NCBI RefSeq assembly: GCF_902652985.1
Contig: NC_047019.1
Coordinates: 22,630,001 to 22,694,000, forward strand
Length of the DNA: 64,000 nucleotides
Reading direction: 5' to 3'
From: Pecten maximus
Lineage: Eukaryota
This document shows positions 21,001 through 63,300 of this stretch, piece by piece; positions within the stretch are counted from its first letter, which is position 1, and each line of letters begins with the position of its first letter. The position numbers are program-made.

Positions 21001-24000
21001 TCATTATTAATAACTTTGCTAACTATGTGTTATCCATACCACCGAACCCAGTACATGCTTCACCTGCATTTTTGTAAGAAACACGTGTTCGCCTATGAAT
21101 CTTTTGCGGCTTAATCCTTTCATTTTTGACATTAATATAAACTACATGAACAACTATTACTGAAAACGAAATGTTGAACATTCAGCAGGCTAATGCAGCA
21201 TCCATGTTGAAAATATTTACCGCCTGTTGAAATACATGTACTTGTATTTCATGAGTCCTTCATTTTACTTGACAATGCATTAAAACACAACATACCGATG
21301 AATGTACAAACAAAAATGTAATAAAAGAATAATTAGTCTAACTAGGATAAATTCATATATTCAATATATTTGTGCAGAATTTTTTGGTCAATGTAACTAC
21401 AATACTATACTTATGAGGCTAATTATTTACTTGGCATCAGCTGTGGAAATATCAATTAATATATATATATACATTATGCTTGGTGTGTGGCTTCGTTTAT
21501 TCCGTGTTAATGCATAGTAATTAATTATTCAAAACTCCGGGTGGCATATCTACAGCGTCAAACACGCAACCGTGACGTAAGGAAAAACACATTTGCCCTA
21601 ACATGGGAGGTGTGTATAAATGCTAGCAAGAAAATATCAAAAGAAATGCATTGAGCATTGGAAGGTATTATCGTTAAAAGCTTTCTTTGATTAATAGATA
21701 ATTAAGTTCACTGTTAAATATTTCAATCGCTTTAATTATGACAAATTGTACAATGTAGATTATGACGGATATAAGGGGAATGTATGATGGAGTTATGTGT
21801 TGTTCTTTGTTATAAACTTTGCCGGTGGTAAAGACGTTGGTGCATTAGTCATTTGTTATATTTACGGATTACATGTATGAAATTTAAATGTCTTACTCTT
21901 TTGCCTGGTCTATTAAAGTGTCAAGTGGTATTGAATAGATTACTTGTCAGGATAATAACAAATGTGTACAAAGAATATGGAATGCGTCACACTCACAATC
22001 GTACAATAAACCAGTTGTACCCTTGTGTATTTTCACACATATTTATTCTTACTCAAAGACTATGCGATTTTCACAAAGGATTCATTTTCCTTTTGAAATG
22101 AAACAATTCCGTTCAATTTACTCCGTAAAATGTCAGTTTCTATGGCTAATCAGTCTGACATCTGACCATGCCTTCTGTTTAGGTTTTACAAATATTATTT
22201 CATGTACATGTCCTTTCTTACCACATGAATCAAATTATTGTGGATATTTACAGGTAAACACCCATAAATATGTATGTTACAATGTAAGAATGATATAACG
22301 CTAAGTCTTTTATATACCCACGCCTACGATGTAAATGTTGACTCATATAATGTACCTGGTAAGTATGTAAAAATTCTCAGACTGATTCAGACGACGTGAT
22401 TTAAATCTTTTTGCGACTGGTCATTGTTTCAACAAACTGGACCCATGTACCTGGGTAGTTAAGTATATTCTCACCACTTTTATCGTTGTATAATAGGCGA
22501 TTACTCGAGTACCACACCACCAATGTATGTACGGTAGATTATTAGTGAAGTGAAGCTATAATTCTAAAGTAGCCATTTACAACAAGCTTTGTCAGCTTTA
22601 CAAGAATTCTTATCATCTTCTATATTGATACACTTAGTCTATATATCATTTGCTATAATTGCTTCAACATTGTGACGTAGATTCCTAGCATAATTTATCA
22701 TAAATCAATTAGACGTATATAATACACGATAATAGTTATAAATGAGAAAATGTTTATGTTAATTTATTTCAAAATAATATTAAGCTTACTAATCATTCTA
22801 GGAAGGTGTCAGTTAAGTATTGCCGTTATGATTATATGTCAAGCTGCAGGCTAAATCACTAGTGGGTATGTTGCCCTGGTGGATTCCACATACATTGTTG
22901 TAGCAGAAGTTTCCCATGCCATCAGAAGAATACATTACAAATCGTCTTAAGTGTATAGAACATTGTTCATATATACCGCTAAATTGCCAGGTGTTTCTTT
23001 AATTAATTTGTAATTCTTTAATCCTTTCTTAACTTAGTTTTTCGATTAATTTAGTTGGCGTGCTATCTATCCGTAATATCATGATAATTGATTTAAAACC
23101 CTTTTATCTCCATTGAGTCGTTAGAAACAGTCTTACATGTAACTTCGCGGGCTTATATAAATACAGAACAGTGATTTGAACGAAGACAACAACAGTTTTT
23201 TTTTAGTTTCGTTTTTATTTTCAGTTTAAGAATATATGCACATGTTGAACATTTTATGTATAATAATAGTCAGGTAGTTCATACGCTTACTTACACATTC
23301 GTACCTAGTTTATCGACCACTAATTGGTCGAAAGTCTACATAATTTAGATTTGTAAAAAACTAATACAGTAAAGCCTGTGGAACATTTATCAAAGACATG
23401 AACTGACCATGTCTTGTCGTTAGAATCACACCTAACAAAGAAACACATACACACAGATATTCAATTTCATTTACATTTACACTCTCTATCATACTTTTTC
23501 AAGCGCAGCATATAGCAATTTATAGAAGAACACAATAACAGTTTAGGCAGACTGAGCAAATATTCAATAAGTTCATGAAAGACAAATGTATTTGGTCATT
23601 ATTCAATTCCTACAGGTTCTTTTCACCTTATGTAAAACAGGTTTAAGGTTTCCAAACTCTGGCGTCATTGTCTTTTGTTCAGTAGATATAGCACCCGATG
23701 TGAAATGTCTCTTTCCCATTCTCAAGCCTTTGTACAATGCAACTTGTCAAAAAGTTGACAAATATCGAAAATTCATCACTGGAGATTGGATACTCCTACT
23801 TCTTCACATAGCAAATTTTACTGCTTGTCCATTTTGAGACGTCTGAACACATATAGAAGCACAAAACATGCTGAATGACCGTTTGATTGTTTGCGAAATA
23901 AGAATAATAAATAGACTAGTATATTAATGCTGAGTCCGAGAGAACTTCCACAGCTTGATATTCCTTCTAAGGATTTGCTCGTATGAACAGTACTCCAGGT

Positions 24001-60300: not shown

Positions 60301-63300
60301 GAAATGGAAGCCGTTATAACCGGAAATACGCCAACAGATAGGATTAACAATGCGCTGGCAACATTGAGGAGCGAAATGGTAAATATAATGTCTACATTTT
60401 GTATATATATATATATATATATATCTATATGCATAAATTAGAAATTGTCAAGCATTTTAATGATCCAAACTAATCTAATATGATTTAAAAGGTACCTACA
60501 TGACCTCCTATAAAATATGTTTTCTAGTTGAAAATTTTTGATAATAATACATGTTTATCTTTCCAGCTTGACCTCCGACAACAAGATGTCCAGTTAATGA
60601 ATCAACTCATATGTATCAATGATAATATCAAGACGCTGGTTAAACGGAGGACGAACCAAGGGAGACCAATGAGAAAGAAAGTTTCTTTGGTTAAAGGAAG
60701 ACGGAAATTCGTCAATCTGAACGAATCCATTCCAGAGGAGGATTCTAGCTCTGCAGATTCCGATAGCGACGCCAGCATTTCTAGTAACGACAATGACTTG
60801 TAATAGGAAACTGGGATAGAGGAACAGCATTTCAAATGAATCCATCAACTGGAATATTGATTCTGCACTCTAGAAAGAGGGATCACTACCGCCATGTAGA
60901 CAGAAACAAAAGTTTAGCAATTTAAGGTAAATATTTAAAATAACATTCCGAAAAAAATGACTAAATGGTTATTAAATAACGCTCGGTTGTTTAGATTGAT
61001 TTCAGAATATATAGAAATTGTTTTTCTGTATCGAGTAGATAATCATATAACATTCAAATGTTCACATACGTAATGTTCGAATGTATTTGTCTTTTCAGAT
61101 AGCCCCAAGTTTTACTGATCTGCCCACTACGGAGACTAACCCATGACGATGTAAAGGTGTCTGTTCGAGCACGTACCATAGGGTGTTTTTTTGCTGAGAA
61201 CTTGAACACGTATGTGACATAAGGAAATTACGAAATCGCGTGATTCAGTGACGCTCAAAACACTTTCTGGACCCAGATACTTTGATCAGCAGCATGTTTT
61301 TATTTCGAAACTTAACTGGCACAATAACACAATCCGAAAGACGTTTTAATGAAAAAACAGACTTTCCTTTGAATGGTGCTTATTGGATAATTTAAGAGTT
61401 TCCAAACTTCCTAAAAAGATTCCTATATGTGTGCTTAAGAGTATCTGGTACTAATTTGAAGAAGATGTATCAGTGACATTGATATTTTACTAGGGAATAG
61501 CGTCGGAATGGCAAAACAAGCCGCATATACAACTTTGTTCCTTAACGCTCTGTCACTTATTTTGCCAGAGTGTTATTATGTGTTCAACGGGTGCAATATA
61601 TCAACCATAAACAGAAGTATGATATAATGTGAGGTTTTACCTTGAATGTTAATTGATGTCAATATTATGACAAATGCATGAGTTATTATATGTATGAGTG
61701 TGTATGTCAGACTTAAGTATGTCAGACTGAGTGTGAATGTCCGACTGAATGAGTATGTCTGAATGTCTGTGTATATATAGTTGTAAATTCCATGTGCAAT
61801 AGGAAATGTTGCAATTATTTTAAAATCTGGAAAATAAAAACTTACTAATTACTGATGAGTGATATTTGATTTACTTCATGCATCGTCTTTTGTACATGTA
61901 GTGAGTAGGTCATAGTTAAATAAAGAAGCATTTAAAGTTCAGTGAAATATTTCTATCAGGATCCAGAATAATATCATGCAAACTGGTATGTGTACTACTG
62001 TACATTTTGCATATAAAAGTACAGTTTATGTTTATATATACGAACATACAGCACCACACAGGCTAGTGGTACTGATAGTTGTGATAATAGTTTAGGTTTC
62101 AAAATGTTACAAACTATTTTATCAGTTCATGGAATACTAAGTCGAAGTAGACAAACATATATTGCCAACAAAAAATGATGGTACAGAGGTAGTTCAAAAC
62201 TGACCTTGTACTTTAGGAAGATCTAAAAAGTTATAGAATAATAAAATAACTCATTCAATTATAGCTATTTCAGCACACACACAAATGTTACGGTATATGA
62301 ATTTGTTAGTAATGTAACAGTGCTACTATATACGCAAAAGTGATATGGACGCGGTCGTATTGGTAAACTGTTAACATTTGAACCACACAAAACGGTATTT
62401 CACGGATTTGGTATTAACATGTGAACTTTAAATATTGAAGGTATCTTTTACGATATATTGAAGGGCATATACTCGAGATAAATAAAAACAATCAATTACA
62501 TGTTATAACTTTGAGATTTGATTATAACAATGGCATAACAATAAGCTGACAGGAAAAGTAGAAAACGAAAAACGGCAGCCATAGAAATCACAATAATTCC
62601 ATAGAGTCAGTTGTGTTATCTTGTTTCAATATGCTTATCATGCAAACAGTTTAATTCTTGATTTTCAACTGATTACAACACCACAAAGCGACCACTATTA
62701 GTAATGGGTTTTTTGTAGGCAGTAACACCAACATGCATTTTCTACTCGACCATTTATTCCAACATTTTACTCATCTTGGCAATTCCTATGAGTAGGACTA
62801 TAAAACGAATGTTATTTTAAGATATTTACATAGAAACAAGACTTAACTTTTGCGTACTAGCTTCATGCCGTTTTGGCATGTTATAATTCAACAACATCAC
62901 GTTCCGACCTGCAATATCGCAATATGAATAGGTGACCTTAGGTCAATTGAACTACAGATATGATCAGGTATGATTCATTAGGAATACTCTTTTGTAAATG
63001 AACATTTGAGCAACGTTATGCGTAAGGTTTTCATCTCACATTTTTTAATTACTCGTTATGGTAGAAAATCAAAATCACATCCCAACTGACGCCAAGTAGA
63101 AATCTTCTTTGATTTTTGCAGCCTGAATGATATTAATCATATGTAAATATTATCTGTTTGTGTCTCATGTTATCAGGGAGAATTTCGCTCTATTGCACAC
63201 TTTTCCTGTAAAAAAAGTAAATGTTATTTTGACAATCATCGACATATATTTTTTCCGGAGTTTCTTACTTATGCTATTTTGACTGTTTTGGTATTATTGA

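What the first reader, a model, noticed from the sequence alone, without database searches (positions are those of the whole stretch)
23924..60803. Eight-gene tandem expansion of tiny LURAP1/FAM89-like adaptors, hidden from the ORF track by splicing
Seen: eight paralogues of 60-187 aa share a phase-0 intron in the helix RINxALATLRSEM|LDLRQQDVQLMxQLxxINDNI and a basic segment (KRR..RKK..NGR). The seven intact copies also have an acidic serine tract (SxDSDSD). All have a TATA box about 75-105 nt upstream of the ATG. Established: vertebrate LURAP1, LURAP1L, FAM89A and FAM89B are few and dispersed; LURAP1 and FAM89B are MRCK adaptors and FAM89B is linked to Smad2 inhibition. FAM167 has a similar helix, so the family call needs checking. 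Inference: a lineage-specific cluster of compact, rapidly inducible regulators undergoing birth-and-death evolution.
Basis: partly seen in the sequence, partly recalled or inferred. Interest (0 to 1): 0.7.

Follow-up and report, generated by a model that had tools for sequence, protein, structure and literature searches.

The report
Scallop tandem cluster of LURAP-helix genes
Eight small neighbouring scallop genes are real, spliced copies of a mollusc-only branch of the LURAP adaptor family, several shortened to little more than one helix that in vertebrate relatives binds the kinase MRCK.

Summary
The window (Pecten maximus by exact protein matches) carries exactly eight paralogues, seven on the minus strand and one on the plus strand. 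All eight have a GT..AG phase-0 intron at the same place in a heptad helix and a TATA box 75-112 nt upstream of the ATG.

Copies 1, 2, 3 and 5 equal existing RefSeq "uncharacterized" proteins, and all four pass the Pfam LURAP cut-off. FAM167 never hits. Copies 4, 6, 7 and 8 matched no retrieved protein.

These genes are not LURAP1 or FAM89 orthologues. Molluscs have separate LURAP1-like and LRAP25-like genes. This cluster belongs to a third subfamily, seen so far only in molluscs, with an N-terminal helix and a C-terminal IL..NI.LWK helix.

Scallops have 7-9 or more genes of this subfamily, against 1-2 found in mussels and oysters. Most orthogroups are shared by four scallop genera. The 130-aa and about 103-aa forms are derived truncations.

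- Copy 6 is a copy5/copy7 crossover chimera.
- Copy 4 is cut off at its 3' end.
- Intact copies show dN/dS of about 0.1-0.2.

MRCK binding is inferred from conserved R/E/D spacing and was not tested. Expression and inducibility were not tested either.

The parts
23924..24948 (-). Copy 1, long form (187 aa). TATA at 24942-24948. CDS exon 1 is 24772-24846, exon 2 is 24368-24623 and exon 3 is 23924-24156 (stop included). Intron 1 is phase 0 and intron 2 is phase 1. It is the only window copy that keeps the C-terminal ILRRNIKLWK helix.
   Evidence: Exons are exact in P0018 (P. maximus LOC117327535). LURAP scores 29.7 bits against a cut-off of 25. The AF2 model has helices at 3-51 and 161-186. TATA position.
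35967..36906 (-). Copy 2, middle form (130 aa). TATA at about 36898-36906. Exon 1 is 36733-36813, exon 2 is 36256-36484 and exon 3 is 35967-36049.
   Evidence: Exact in P0013 (LOC117327536). LURAP scores 26.2 bits.
43108..44051 (-). Copy 3, middle form (130 aa). TATA at 44045-44051. Exon 1 is 43879-43959, exon 2 is 43362-43590 and exon 3 is 43108-43190.
   Evidence: Exact in P0010 (LOC117327537). LURAP scores 31.6 bits.
46901..47298 (-). Copy 4, a 3'-truncated copy (27 + 33 codons). It has TATAAAG at about 47292-47298. Exon 1 is 47133-47213 and exon 2 is 46901-47002. A stop codon sits exactly where homology to copy 5 ends. It carries R-to-G at a nearly invariant helix residue. It is probably a pseudogene.
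   Evidence: abrupt loss of homology, no remnant downstream. dN/dS is 0.40 against copies 5 and 7. It matches no retrieved protein.
49072..49596 (-). Copy 5, short form (103 aa). TATA at 49590-49596. Exon 1 is 49441-49521 and exon 2 is 49072-49302.
   Evidence: Exact in P0001 (LOC117326681). LURAP scores 33.6 bits. The AF2 model has a single helix at 8-54 and the rest is disordered.
51597..52125 (-). Copy 6, short form (27 + 76 codons). TATA at 52119-52125. Exon 1 is 51970-52050 and exon 2 is 51597-51827. It is a chimera. The promoter, exon 1, the intron and the start of exon 2 are copy-5-like. The 3' part of exon 2 and the downstream DNA are copy-7-like. The switch lies near 51707-51766.
   Evidence: (sliding identity). 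Exon 2 matches no retrieved protein exactly.
54296..54868 (-). Copy 7, short form (25 + 76 codons). TATA at 54862-54868. Exon 1 is 54682-54756 and exon 2 is 54296-54526.
   Evidence: Exon 2 is 93% identical to P0001. No exact protein was retrieved.
60202..60803 (+). Copy 8, short form (25 + 78 codons) and the only plus-strand copy, lying head-to-head with copy 7. TATA at 60202-60208. Exon 1 is 60304-60378 and exon 2 is 60567-60803.
   Evidence: It groups with the 99-102 aa proteins of Argopecten and Ylistrum (99/91*, 98/83*). No P. maximus protein was retrieved for it.

Best explanation
This is a tandem array of eight genes, seven intact and one truncated. They belong to a third branch of the LURAP family, seen so far only in molluscs, which expanded in the scallop lineage.

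Each protein starts with one long amphipathic helix of about five heptads, with the intron in its middle. This helix is homologous to the 'leucine repeat' through which vertebrate LURAP1 and LRAP25/FAM89B bind the autoinhibitory KIM helix of the Cdc42 effector kinase MRCK. A disordered basic patch and an acidic serine tract follow it.

The ancestral form is about 150-220 aa. It also has an LVRQQSVPxYC motif and a second, C-terminal helix (IL..NI.LWK). Copy 1 keeps all of these. Copies 2-3 lost the C-terminal helix. Copies 4-8 also lost the middle segment together with intron 2.

The array grows and decays by unequal crossing-over and truncation, while intact copies stay under purifying selection.

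Inferred and not shown: the helix docks on scallop MRCK. The shortened paralogues would then act as minimal modulators, either opening the kinase or competing with full-length adaptors, without carrying whatever the C-terminal helix recruits.
For: Shown:
- Eight loci share the phase-0 intron and the TATA box.
- Copies 1, 2, 3 and 5 are letter-for-letter RefSeq P. maximus proteins. All four pass the LURAP cut-off of 25 bits, with 29.7, 26.2, 31.6 and 33.6 bits.
- 11 of 11 scallop proteins from the first search pass the cut-off.
- A profile search of 1.84 billion representatives gave 80 hits at E<=0.001. Of 85 relatives scanned, 75 hit LURAP and none hit FAM167.
- The subfamily is separated from the LURAP1-like and LRAP25-like mollusc proteins by a 98/97* branch. 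It is marked by IL..NI.LWK, which none of the LURAP1-like or LRAP25-like rows carry.
- The C-terminal motif and LVRQQSVPxYC are conserved in mussels, oysters, Dreissena, Haliotis, unionids and a chiton, and in the long scallop forms. The long form is therefore ancestral.
- Most scallop orthogroups contain 3-4 genera with support of 96-100.
- Copy 6 is a chimera and copy 4 is truncated.
- dN/dS is 0.14-0.18 for copies 5/6/7, 0.12 for copies 2/3 and 0.07-0.08 for copy 8 against copies 5/7.
- AF2 predicts a helix at 3-51 and another at 161-186 in copy 1, and a helix at 8-54 only in copy 5. pLDDT is above 90 in the N-terminal helices and in the core (about 171-180) of copy 1's C-terminal helix.

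Support for the MRCK step:
- PMC12519202 (passages and section 7) reports that LURAP1, LRAP25 and DIORA1 share a KIM-binding helix. It also reports that DIORA1 R124, E126 and D134 are essential for KIM binding.
- All eight window copies have [R/K]-x-[E/D]-x7-D with that same spacing. The Asp is invariant in alignments A1, A2 and A3.
- PMC5677176 (passages) states that the Lurap1 leucine-rich repeats bind and activate MRCK.
Against:
- The match of R/E/D to DIORA1 rests on spacing alone. The published alignment is in a supplement that I could not open.
- The Pfam match covers only profile positions about 4-55 of 118, which is the helix. Homology outside the helix is not shown.
- For copies 4, 6, 7 and 8 the LURAP score could only be taken exon by exon. 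Exon 2 scored 12.9-18.7 bits, below the cut-off, and exon 1 gave no hit.
- No expression evidence was seen. Copies 6, 7 and 8 matched no retrieved protein, so they could be untranscribed.
- The dN/dS values rest on few substitutions. Copies 6/7, for example, have 12 synonymous and 7 non-synonymous differences. Gene conversion or crossover also blurs pairwise distances.
- Counts of 1-2 genes in mussels and oysters come from a word-seeded search and may be too low.
Confidence: 0.55

Rival explanations
1. The helix is a generic coiled-coil or leucine zipper. Through it the paralogues pair with each other or with other partners, for example in the nucleus with the basic patch serving as a localisation signal, or in TGF-beta/Smad-type regulation as proposed for FAM89B. 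MRCK would play no part.
For: - The heptad pattern is continuous (I18 to L53 in P0021 numbering).
- Weak sub-threshold Pfam hits go to other coiled-coil families such as CENP-F_leu_zip, ATG16 and TRIM_CC.
- A basic cluster follows the helix.
- One passage of PMC12219105 calls FAM89B a transcriptional corepressor that 'may' interact with Smads.
Against: The strongest conservation is not only in the hydrophobic positions. It also covers the polar R/K, E/D, R, QQD and N positions. That pattern fits a specific heterologous partner. It also matches the residues that were tested for KIM binding in DIORA1. The Smad statement that I saw is speculative, and I did not read its source.
Confidence: 0.2
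2. Most of the short copies (4-8) are decaying duplicates without function, and the real genes are only the long forms.
For: - Copy 4 is truncated and has R-to-G at a nearly invariant position. Its dN/dS is 0.40.
- Copies 6, 7 and 8 matched no retrieved protein.
- The short forms lack two conserved ancestral motifs.
Against: - Copies 5-8 keep open frames, canonical splice sites and TATA boxes.
- dN/dS is 0.07-0.18.
- Short forms of 99-108 aa are annotated in all four scallop genera. The copy-8 type forms a cross-genus orthogroup.
Confidence: 0.12
3. The genes belong to FAM167/DIORA rather than to LURAP.
For: DIORA1 shares the KIM-binding motif and the R/E/D spacing.
Against: - There was no FAM167 hit at E<=10 for 16 exon peptides or for 8 long family members.
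- There was none at E<=1 for 11 scallop proteins.
- There was none at E<=0.001 for 85 relatives.
- LURAP passes its curated cut-off.
Confidence: 0.02

Closest known systems
LURAP1 / LRAP35a (vertebrate MRCK-MYO18A adaptor)
   Same: Same Pfam family (PF14854). Both have a leucine-heptad helix with [R/K]xE...D. Both are small and otherwise disordered proteins.
   Different: - The helix is at the very N-terminus here, against about residues 70-100 in the mollusc LURAP1-like proteins.
- There is no C-terminal PDZ-binding motif. Zebrafish Lurap1 ends T-F-L (PMC5677176), while these end TQH, HNH, HSH, IEN or NDL.
- The cluster sits on the other side of a 98/97* branch.
- Molluscs have their own LURAP1-like genes.
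FAM89B / LRAP25 and FAM89A
   Same: Same Pfam family. The long forms are of similar overall size (184-188 aa).
   Different: - Mollusc 'leucine repeat adapter protein 25-like' proteins have a different helix signature (R.EMVGLRQLDMSLLCQL) and a different C-terminus (RAE[ST]EF).
- They form their own clade, 97/89*.
- LIMK1 binding is not testable here.
FAM167A / DIORA1
   Same: It has a helical KIM-binding motif with the same spacing of essential residues, R124, E126 and D134.
   Different: There is no match to the FAM167 Pfam model at any threshold tried. [quoted passage not shown] Whether the mollusc C-terminal helix does something similar is unknown.
Uncharacterized mollusc proteins with an N-terminal LURAP helix and C-terminal IL..NI.LWK (for example Haliotis LOC124137128, Dreissena LOC127848713, Liolophura LOC135462086)
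   Same: True relatives, 32-38% identical to P0021. They share both helices, the LVRQQSVPxYC motif and the acidic serine tract with copy 1.
   Different: In the searches made, mussels and oysters showed 1-2 genes per species. Scallops have 7-9 or more, and most of these have lost the C-terminal helix.

Membership tests
Pfam LURAP (PF14854) | Whole-protein score at or above the curated gathering cut-off of 25 bits | tested here: met
   Copies 1, 2, 3 and 5, taken through their identical public proteins, score 29.7, 26.2, 31.6 and 33.6 bits. Copies 4, 6, 7 and 8 could only be scanned exon by exon. Exon 2 scored 12.9-18.7 bits and exon 1 gave no hit. Their membership rests on 85-96% identity of exon 2 to each other and to copy 5 for copies 4, 6 and 7. 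For copy 8 it rests on 77% identity of exon 2 to an Argopecten protein and on its place in the tree.
Pfam LURAP (PF14854) | Match along the whole 118-position profile | tested here: not met
   Only profile positions about 4-55, the helix, are matched in all scallop proteins, long forms included.
LURAP1 / LRAP35a orthologue | C-terminal class I PDZ-binding motif, which binds MYO18A and Dvl | tested here: not met
   The C-termini are ...RTQH...THNH...IHSH...GIEN and ...DNDL. PMC5677176 gives T-F-L for zebrafish.
LURAP1 / LRAP35a orthologue | Groups with the LURAP1-like proteins of the same phylum | tested here: not met
   The tree has 37 rows. The LURAP1-like clade is 97/96*, and this subfamily lies across a 98/97* branch.
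FAM89B / LRAP25 orthologue | Groups with the LRAP25-like proteins of the same phylum | tested here: not met
   The LRAP25-like clade is 97/89* and is separate. Two of its six rows (P0097, P0101) are unnamed records that I assigned by helix signature.
MRCK KIM-binding adaptors (functional class: LURAP1, LRAP25, DIORA1) | Helix carrying the conserved non-hydrophobic residues needed for KIM binding (DIORA1 R124, E126, D134) | tested here: inconclusive
   [R/K]-x-[E/D]-x7-D is present in 8 of 8 window copies, read exon by exon. The Asp is invariant. The equivalence was judged by spacing only, because the published alignment (SI Fig. S6A of PMC12519202) is in a closed supplement.
MRCK KIM-binding adaptors (functional class) | Physical binding to the MRCK KIM / coiled-coil region | not testable with these tools
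FAM167 / DIORA (Pfam FAM167) | Match to the family model | tested here: not met
   There was no hit at E<=10, at E<=1 or at E<=0.001 for 85 relatives.
Mollusc two-helix LURAP subfamily (unnamed) | N-terminal helix plus C-terminal [ILV][LFM]..N[IVL].[LVI]WK helix | tested here: met
   The N-terminal helix is present in 8 of 8 window copies. The C-terminal motif is present in copy 1 only (1 of 8) and in 8 of 29 scallop proteins. The other copies are placed in the subfamily by the trees and are read as truncated derivatives.

The most novel reading that the evidence does not exclude
Scallops may have turned an ancestral two-helix MRCK adaptor into a graded set of natural 'micro-adaptors'. The long forms would carry both helices. 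The 130-aa and about 103-aa forms would keep only the kinase-docking helix with its charged tail. The short forms would then compete with, or uncouple, the full-length adaptors (this subfamily's long forms, LURAP1-like and LRAP25-like) at the KIM site of MRCK. Under this reading, copy number and TATA/E-box promoters would set actomyosin contractility by dosage. The array would still be remodelled by unequal crossing-over.
Probability: 0.15. Interest if true: 0.6.

Novelty: new variant of a known kind. Interest (0 to 1): 0.35.

Why it matters
The LURAP/FAM89 family is small and poorly understood even in vertebrates. Its only well-mapped feature is the helix that docks on the autoinhibitory KIM segment of MRCK.

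This locus shows that molluscs hold a third, unnamed branch of the family. It has a second conserved helix of unknown partner. In scallops that branch has multiplied and been pared down step by step to the docking helix alone.

That amounts to a natural deletion series for asking what each part does, and a compact example of array growth by unequal crossover. In practical terms, three intact genes (copies 6, 7, 8) and one truncated copy matched no retrieved protein of P. maximus.

It is an incremental finding. Half of the genes are already in RefSeq and already carry the Pfam label.

Tried and rejected
- **Complex prediction.** I tested the N-terminal helix (residues 1-58) against the C-terminal helix (150-187) of copy 1. 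The verdict was 'no answer' (score 0.01), so it says nothing either way.
- **Protein atlas.** I searched with the C-terminal 68 residues of copy 1. There was no usable feature hit, and the structural neighbours were all below TM 0.5 and unrelated.
- **FAM167 membership.** Rejected.
- **Poly(A) signals.** AATAAA and ATTAAA are scattered 139-1168 nt after the stops in this AT-rich DNA, so they are uninformative.
- **Remnant of copy 4's missing 3' part.** Nothing was found in 44100-46900.
- **Other genes inside the cluster.** Of 146 stop-to-stop ORFs of 62 aa or more lying outside the eight loci, none between 23.9 and 61 kb had a credible Pfam hit. I left 32 of the 178 ORFs out of this scan: those overlapping the eight genes and the minisatellite.
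- **Literature.**
  - None of 12 LOC identifiers of the P. maximus and M. yessoensis genes occurs in any held paper.
  - No paper combines 'leucine rich adaptor protein' with mollus*, or LURAP1 with bivalv*.
  - One search was badly posed and returned only general bivalve papers.
  - Lee et al. 2014 (PMC4175338) is not held.
- **Joined spliced models.** I did not build them for copies 4, 6, 7 and 8. All searches, the tree rows and the dN/dS counts for them used single exons.

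
Full report
**Observation**

A six-frame motif scan and exon tracing found eight loci in the window, which has no N. Seven are on the minus strand, with exon 1 ending at 24772, 36733, 43879, 47133, 49441, 51970 and 54682. One is on the plus strand, with exon 1 at 60304-60378.

In all eight, a short first coding exon of 25-27 codons ends in ...ALA(T/A)L(R/K)x(E/D)M directly before GT. 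The next exon starts with (L/M)DL(R/G)QQD directly after AG. The introns are 130-288 nt and phase 0.

A permissive tblastn with 26 family proteins found no further copy in the window. Copies 1-3 have a further phase-1 intron and a third exon that carries the acidic serine tract.

TATAWAW lies 75-112 nt upstream of the ATG in 7 of 8 copies. Copy 4 has TATAAAG at about -85. The TATA columns are invariant in the alignment of the eight upstream regions. Chance is not a serious alternative.

**Identity of the DNA and of the genes**

Exon 2 of copy 7 retrieved only scallop proteins. By exact substring tests, the exons of copies 1, 2, 3 and 5 are contained in these Pecten maximus RefSeq proteins:

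| Copy | RefSeq gene | Length | Session id |
|---|---|---|---|
| 1 | LOC117327535 | 187 aa | P0018 |
| 2 | LOC117327536 | 130 aa | P0013 |
| 3 | LOC117327537 | 130 aa | P0010 |
| 5 | LOC117326681 | 103 aa | P0001 |

All are named 'uncharacterized protein'.

The exons of copies 4, 6, 7 and 8 are not exact in any retrieved protein. P0001's 90% cluster has a single member. So copies 6 and 7, which are 93-95% identical to it in exon 2, are not in that collection as proteins of similar length.

A ninth P. maximus paralogue (LOC117327539, 184 aa, P0021) is not in the window.

Following the scan's rule, I searched the spliced models exon by exon and did not join exons. Whole-protein statements rest on the public proteins only.

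**Family**

Exon 2 alone gives sub-threshold LURAP (PF14854) hits of 12.9-18.7 bits against a cut-off of 25. Exon 1 alone gives nothing. The whole public proteins pass:

- 11 of 11 scallop proteins from the first search score 29.1-40.6 bits.
- P0018 scores 29.7 and P0021 scores 28.0.
- P0013 scores 26.2.

Only profile positions about 4-55 of 118 are matched.

FAM167 never appeared. This holds at E<=10, at E<=1 and at E<=0.001 for 85 relatives, of which 75 hit LURAP.

A profile of 26 scallop proteins, searched against 1.84 billion representatives, found 80 proteins at E<=0.001 and 18 at E<=1e-10. This is a small family.

**Which branch of the family**

Names obtained for 30 representatives show three kinds of mollusc LURAP proteins.

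- **LURAP1-like.** NCBI names them 'leucine rich adaptor protein 1-like' (Haliotis, Dreissena, Mya).
- **LRAP25-like.** NCBI names them 'leucine repeat adapter protein 25-like' (Saccostrea).
- **A third, unnamed kind.** The helix is at the very N-terminus and a C-terminal motif IL..NI.LWK is present.

None of these were LURAP1-like or LRAP25-like rows.

I built a tree of 37 rows that I selected from those 140 by signature. Two unnamed rows were included in the LRAP25-like group. The tree puts the third kind, scallops included, on one side of a 98/97* branch. The other two kinds form clades of 97/96* and 97/89*.

Every named member of the third kind that I looked up is a mollusc: a chiton, gastropods or bivalves. 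The cluster is therefore LURAP-family. It is not a set of LURAP1 or FAM89 orthologues.

**Evolution of the cluster**

Alignment with mussel, oyster, Dreissena, Haliotis, unionid and chiton proteins was informative. The long scallop forms, including copy 1, share three features with these outgroups:

- the C-terminal helix motif;
- an LVRQQSVPxYC motif;
- the acidic serine tract.

The long form is therefore ancestral. The 130-aa forms (copies 2, 3) lack the C-terminal helix. The roughly 100-aa forms (copies 5-8) additionally lack the middle segment and intron 2.

I built a tree of 45 rows: 29 public scallop proteins, 4 window exon-2-only rows and 12 other molluscs. I left out 7 of the 44 hits, namely P0030-P0034, P0043 and P0044, because they were fused or unnamed. 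All 33 scallop rows form one group, support 93/87, not starred. Within it, these orthogroups span 3-4 genera:

| Orthogroup | Support |
|---|---|
| Copy-1 type | 100/99* |
| LOC117327539 type | 100/100* |
| 130-aa type | 100/98* |
| Copy-8 type together with the 141-145-aa type | 96/91* |

The 103-aa type instead forms species-specific groups. That pattern indicates recent duplication or homogenisation.

Named hits per species are as follows.

- **P. maximus:** 5 named hits, plus 4 more loci in this window.
- **Mizuhopecten:** 8.
- **Ylistrum:** 9.
- **Argopecten:** 7 clusters.
- **Individual mussel and oyster species:** 1-2 each. These counts come from a word-seeded search and may be low.

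At DNA level, the units of copies 5 and 6 are 94.9% identical over 959 bp. The units of copies 6 and 7 are 82% identical over 2386 bp.

Sliding identity shows that copy 6 is copy-5-like through its promoter, exon 1, intron and the start of exon 2. It is copy-7-like in the rest of exon 2 and downstream. This is the product expected from unequal crossing-over between copy 5 and copy 7.

Copy 4 loses homology to copy 5 abruptly at the point where a stop codon appears, and no remnant lies downstream.

Nei-Gojobori counts were made on each exon separately and then summed.

| Pair | dN/dS |
|---|---|
| Copies 5, 6, 7 against each other | 0.14-0.18 |
| Copies 2 and 3 | 0.12 |
| Copy 8 against copies 5 and 7 (dS saturated) | 0.07-0.08 |
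| Copy 4 against copies 5 and 7 | 0.40 |

The numbers of substitutions are small.

**Structure and likely mechanism**

AF2 with family alignments predicts the following.

- **Copy 5:** a single helix at residues 8-54, with pLDDT 93-98 over residues 11-50. The tail is disordered.
- **Copy 1:** a helix at 3-51 and a second helix at 161-186, joined by a disordered linker.

The hydrophobic positions of the first helix follow an unbroken 4-3 spacing from I18 to L53 in P0021 numbering. The invariant Asp36 occupies one of these core positions (read).

PMC12519202 (passages and all of section 7) reports that LURAP1, LRAP25 and DIORA1/FAM167A bind the KIM helix of MRCK through a shared helical motif. 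It also reports that DIORA1 R124, E126 and D134 are required for this. All eight window copies have [R/K]-x-[E/D]-x7-D with that spacing.

I could not see the paper's alignment, which is in a closed supplement, so this equivalence is inferred. PMC5677176 (passages) states that the Lurap1 leucine-rich repeats bind and activate MRCK. It also states that the C-terminal T-F-L motif binds PDZ domains. No window copy ends in such a motif.

Tan et al. 2008 and Lee et al. 2014 were seen only as references, and the latter is not held.

My reading is that these proteins dock on MRCK through the helix, and that the shortened paralogues act as minimal modulators or competitors. The docking step, and everything after it, is inference.

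The CK2-type reading of the acidic serine tract and the idea that TATA-containing compact genes are inducible are recalled generalisations. Neither was tested here.

**What stayed unchecked**

- Expression of any copy.
- Synteny with SNRPA in other bivalves, because no eukaryotic genome collection was available.
- Intron positions in vertebrate family members.
- Binding to MRCK.
- The statement that the vertebrate members are few and dispersed, which was not tested here.
- The Smad link of FAM89B. I saw it only as a speculative sentence in one paper.

**Verdict**

This is a real and correctly read gene cluster. Half of it is already annotated. It is a scallop-lineage expansion and stepwise truncation of an unnamed third LURAP subfamily seen so far only in molluscs. 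It is of modest interest.

Noticed in passing
window 2608-2952 and 5994-6188 (+): Two exons encode RRM_1 domains (42.8 and 29.3 bits).
   Followed up: partly
window 10331-10403 (-): A tRNA-Cys(GCA) gene. Rfam tRNA scores 67.5 bits and ARAGORN agrees. It lies between the RRM gene and the cluster.
   Followed up: yes
window 25022-25033, 36966-36977, 47360-47371, 54928-54939 (-): An E-box-containing element, CAGGTGYTNTGT, lies about 150-190 nt upstream of the ATG of copies 1, 2, 4 (one mismatch) and 7. The window has 7 matches against 1.75 expected, and 0 of 100 shuffles reached 7. By eye it is present in degenerate form upstream of copies 5, 6 and 8. It may be a shared cis-element.
   Followed up: partly
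window 49600-49660, 52130-52190, 54870-54920, 47300-47350 (-): Just upstream of the TATA box, copies 4-7 share a block CACCCGCGG...CGTAG...CACGTG/ACGTA, which is E-box or CRE-like. About 30 nt after the TATA box, all copies have an Inr-like TCA(G/T/C)TT.
   Followed up: no
window 56705-56784 and 56930-57301: A 21-bp minisatellite of 17.7 copies at 90% match lies in the 5.3-kb spacer between the head-to-head copies 7 and 8. It produces the long repetitive ORFs in all frames seen.
   Followed up: no
window 57348-57790 and 59052-59537: Inverted repeats of about 200-410 bp (95.6% and 87.6% identity) are themselves built of 59-bp tandem units. They bound about 2.2 kb and may be a foldback-type mobile element. 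No Pfam domain was found inside it.
   Followed up: no
window 8296-8658: A 194-bp unit is tandemly duplicated, 1.9 copies at 85% match.
   Followed up: no
window 56111-56514 and 63444-63848: A dispersed direct repeat of about 400 bp, 75.6% identical, lies on either side of copy 8.
   Followed up: no
outside the window (P0021, P. maximus LOC117327539): A ninth paralogue of 184 aa with both helices exists on the same 51.4-Mb chromosome record but not in the window. The consecutive LOC numbers, and the Mizuhopecten series LOC110447665-447675, suggest that it lies just beyond copy 8.
   Followed up: partly
window 24940-25215 (-): The stop-to-stop ORF upstream of copy 1 begins with a run of glycine codons, which reflects a long G/C homopolymer-like tract near 25190-25215.
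   Followed up: no
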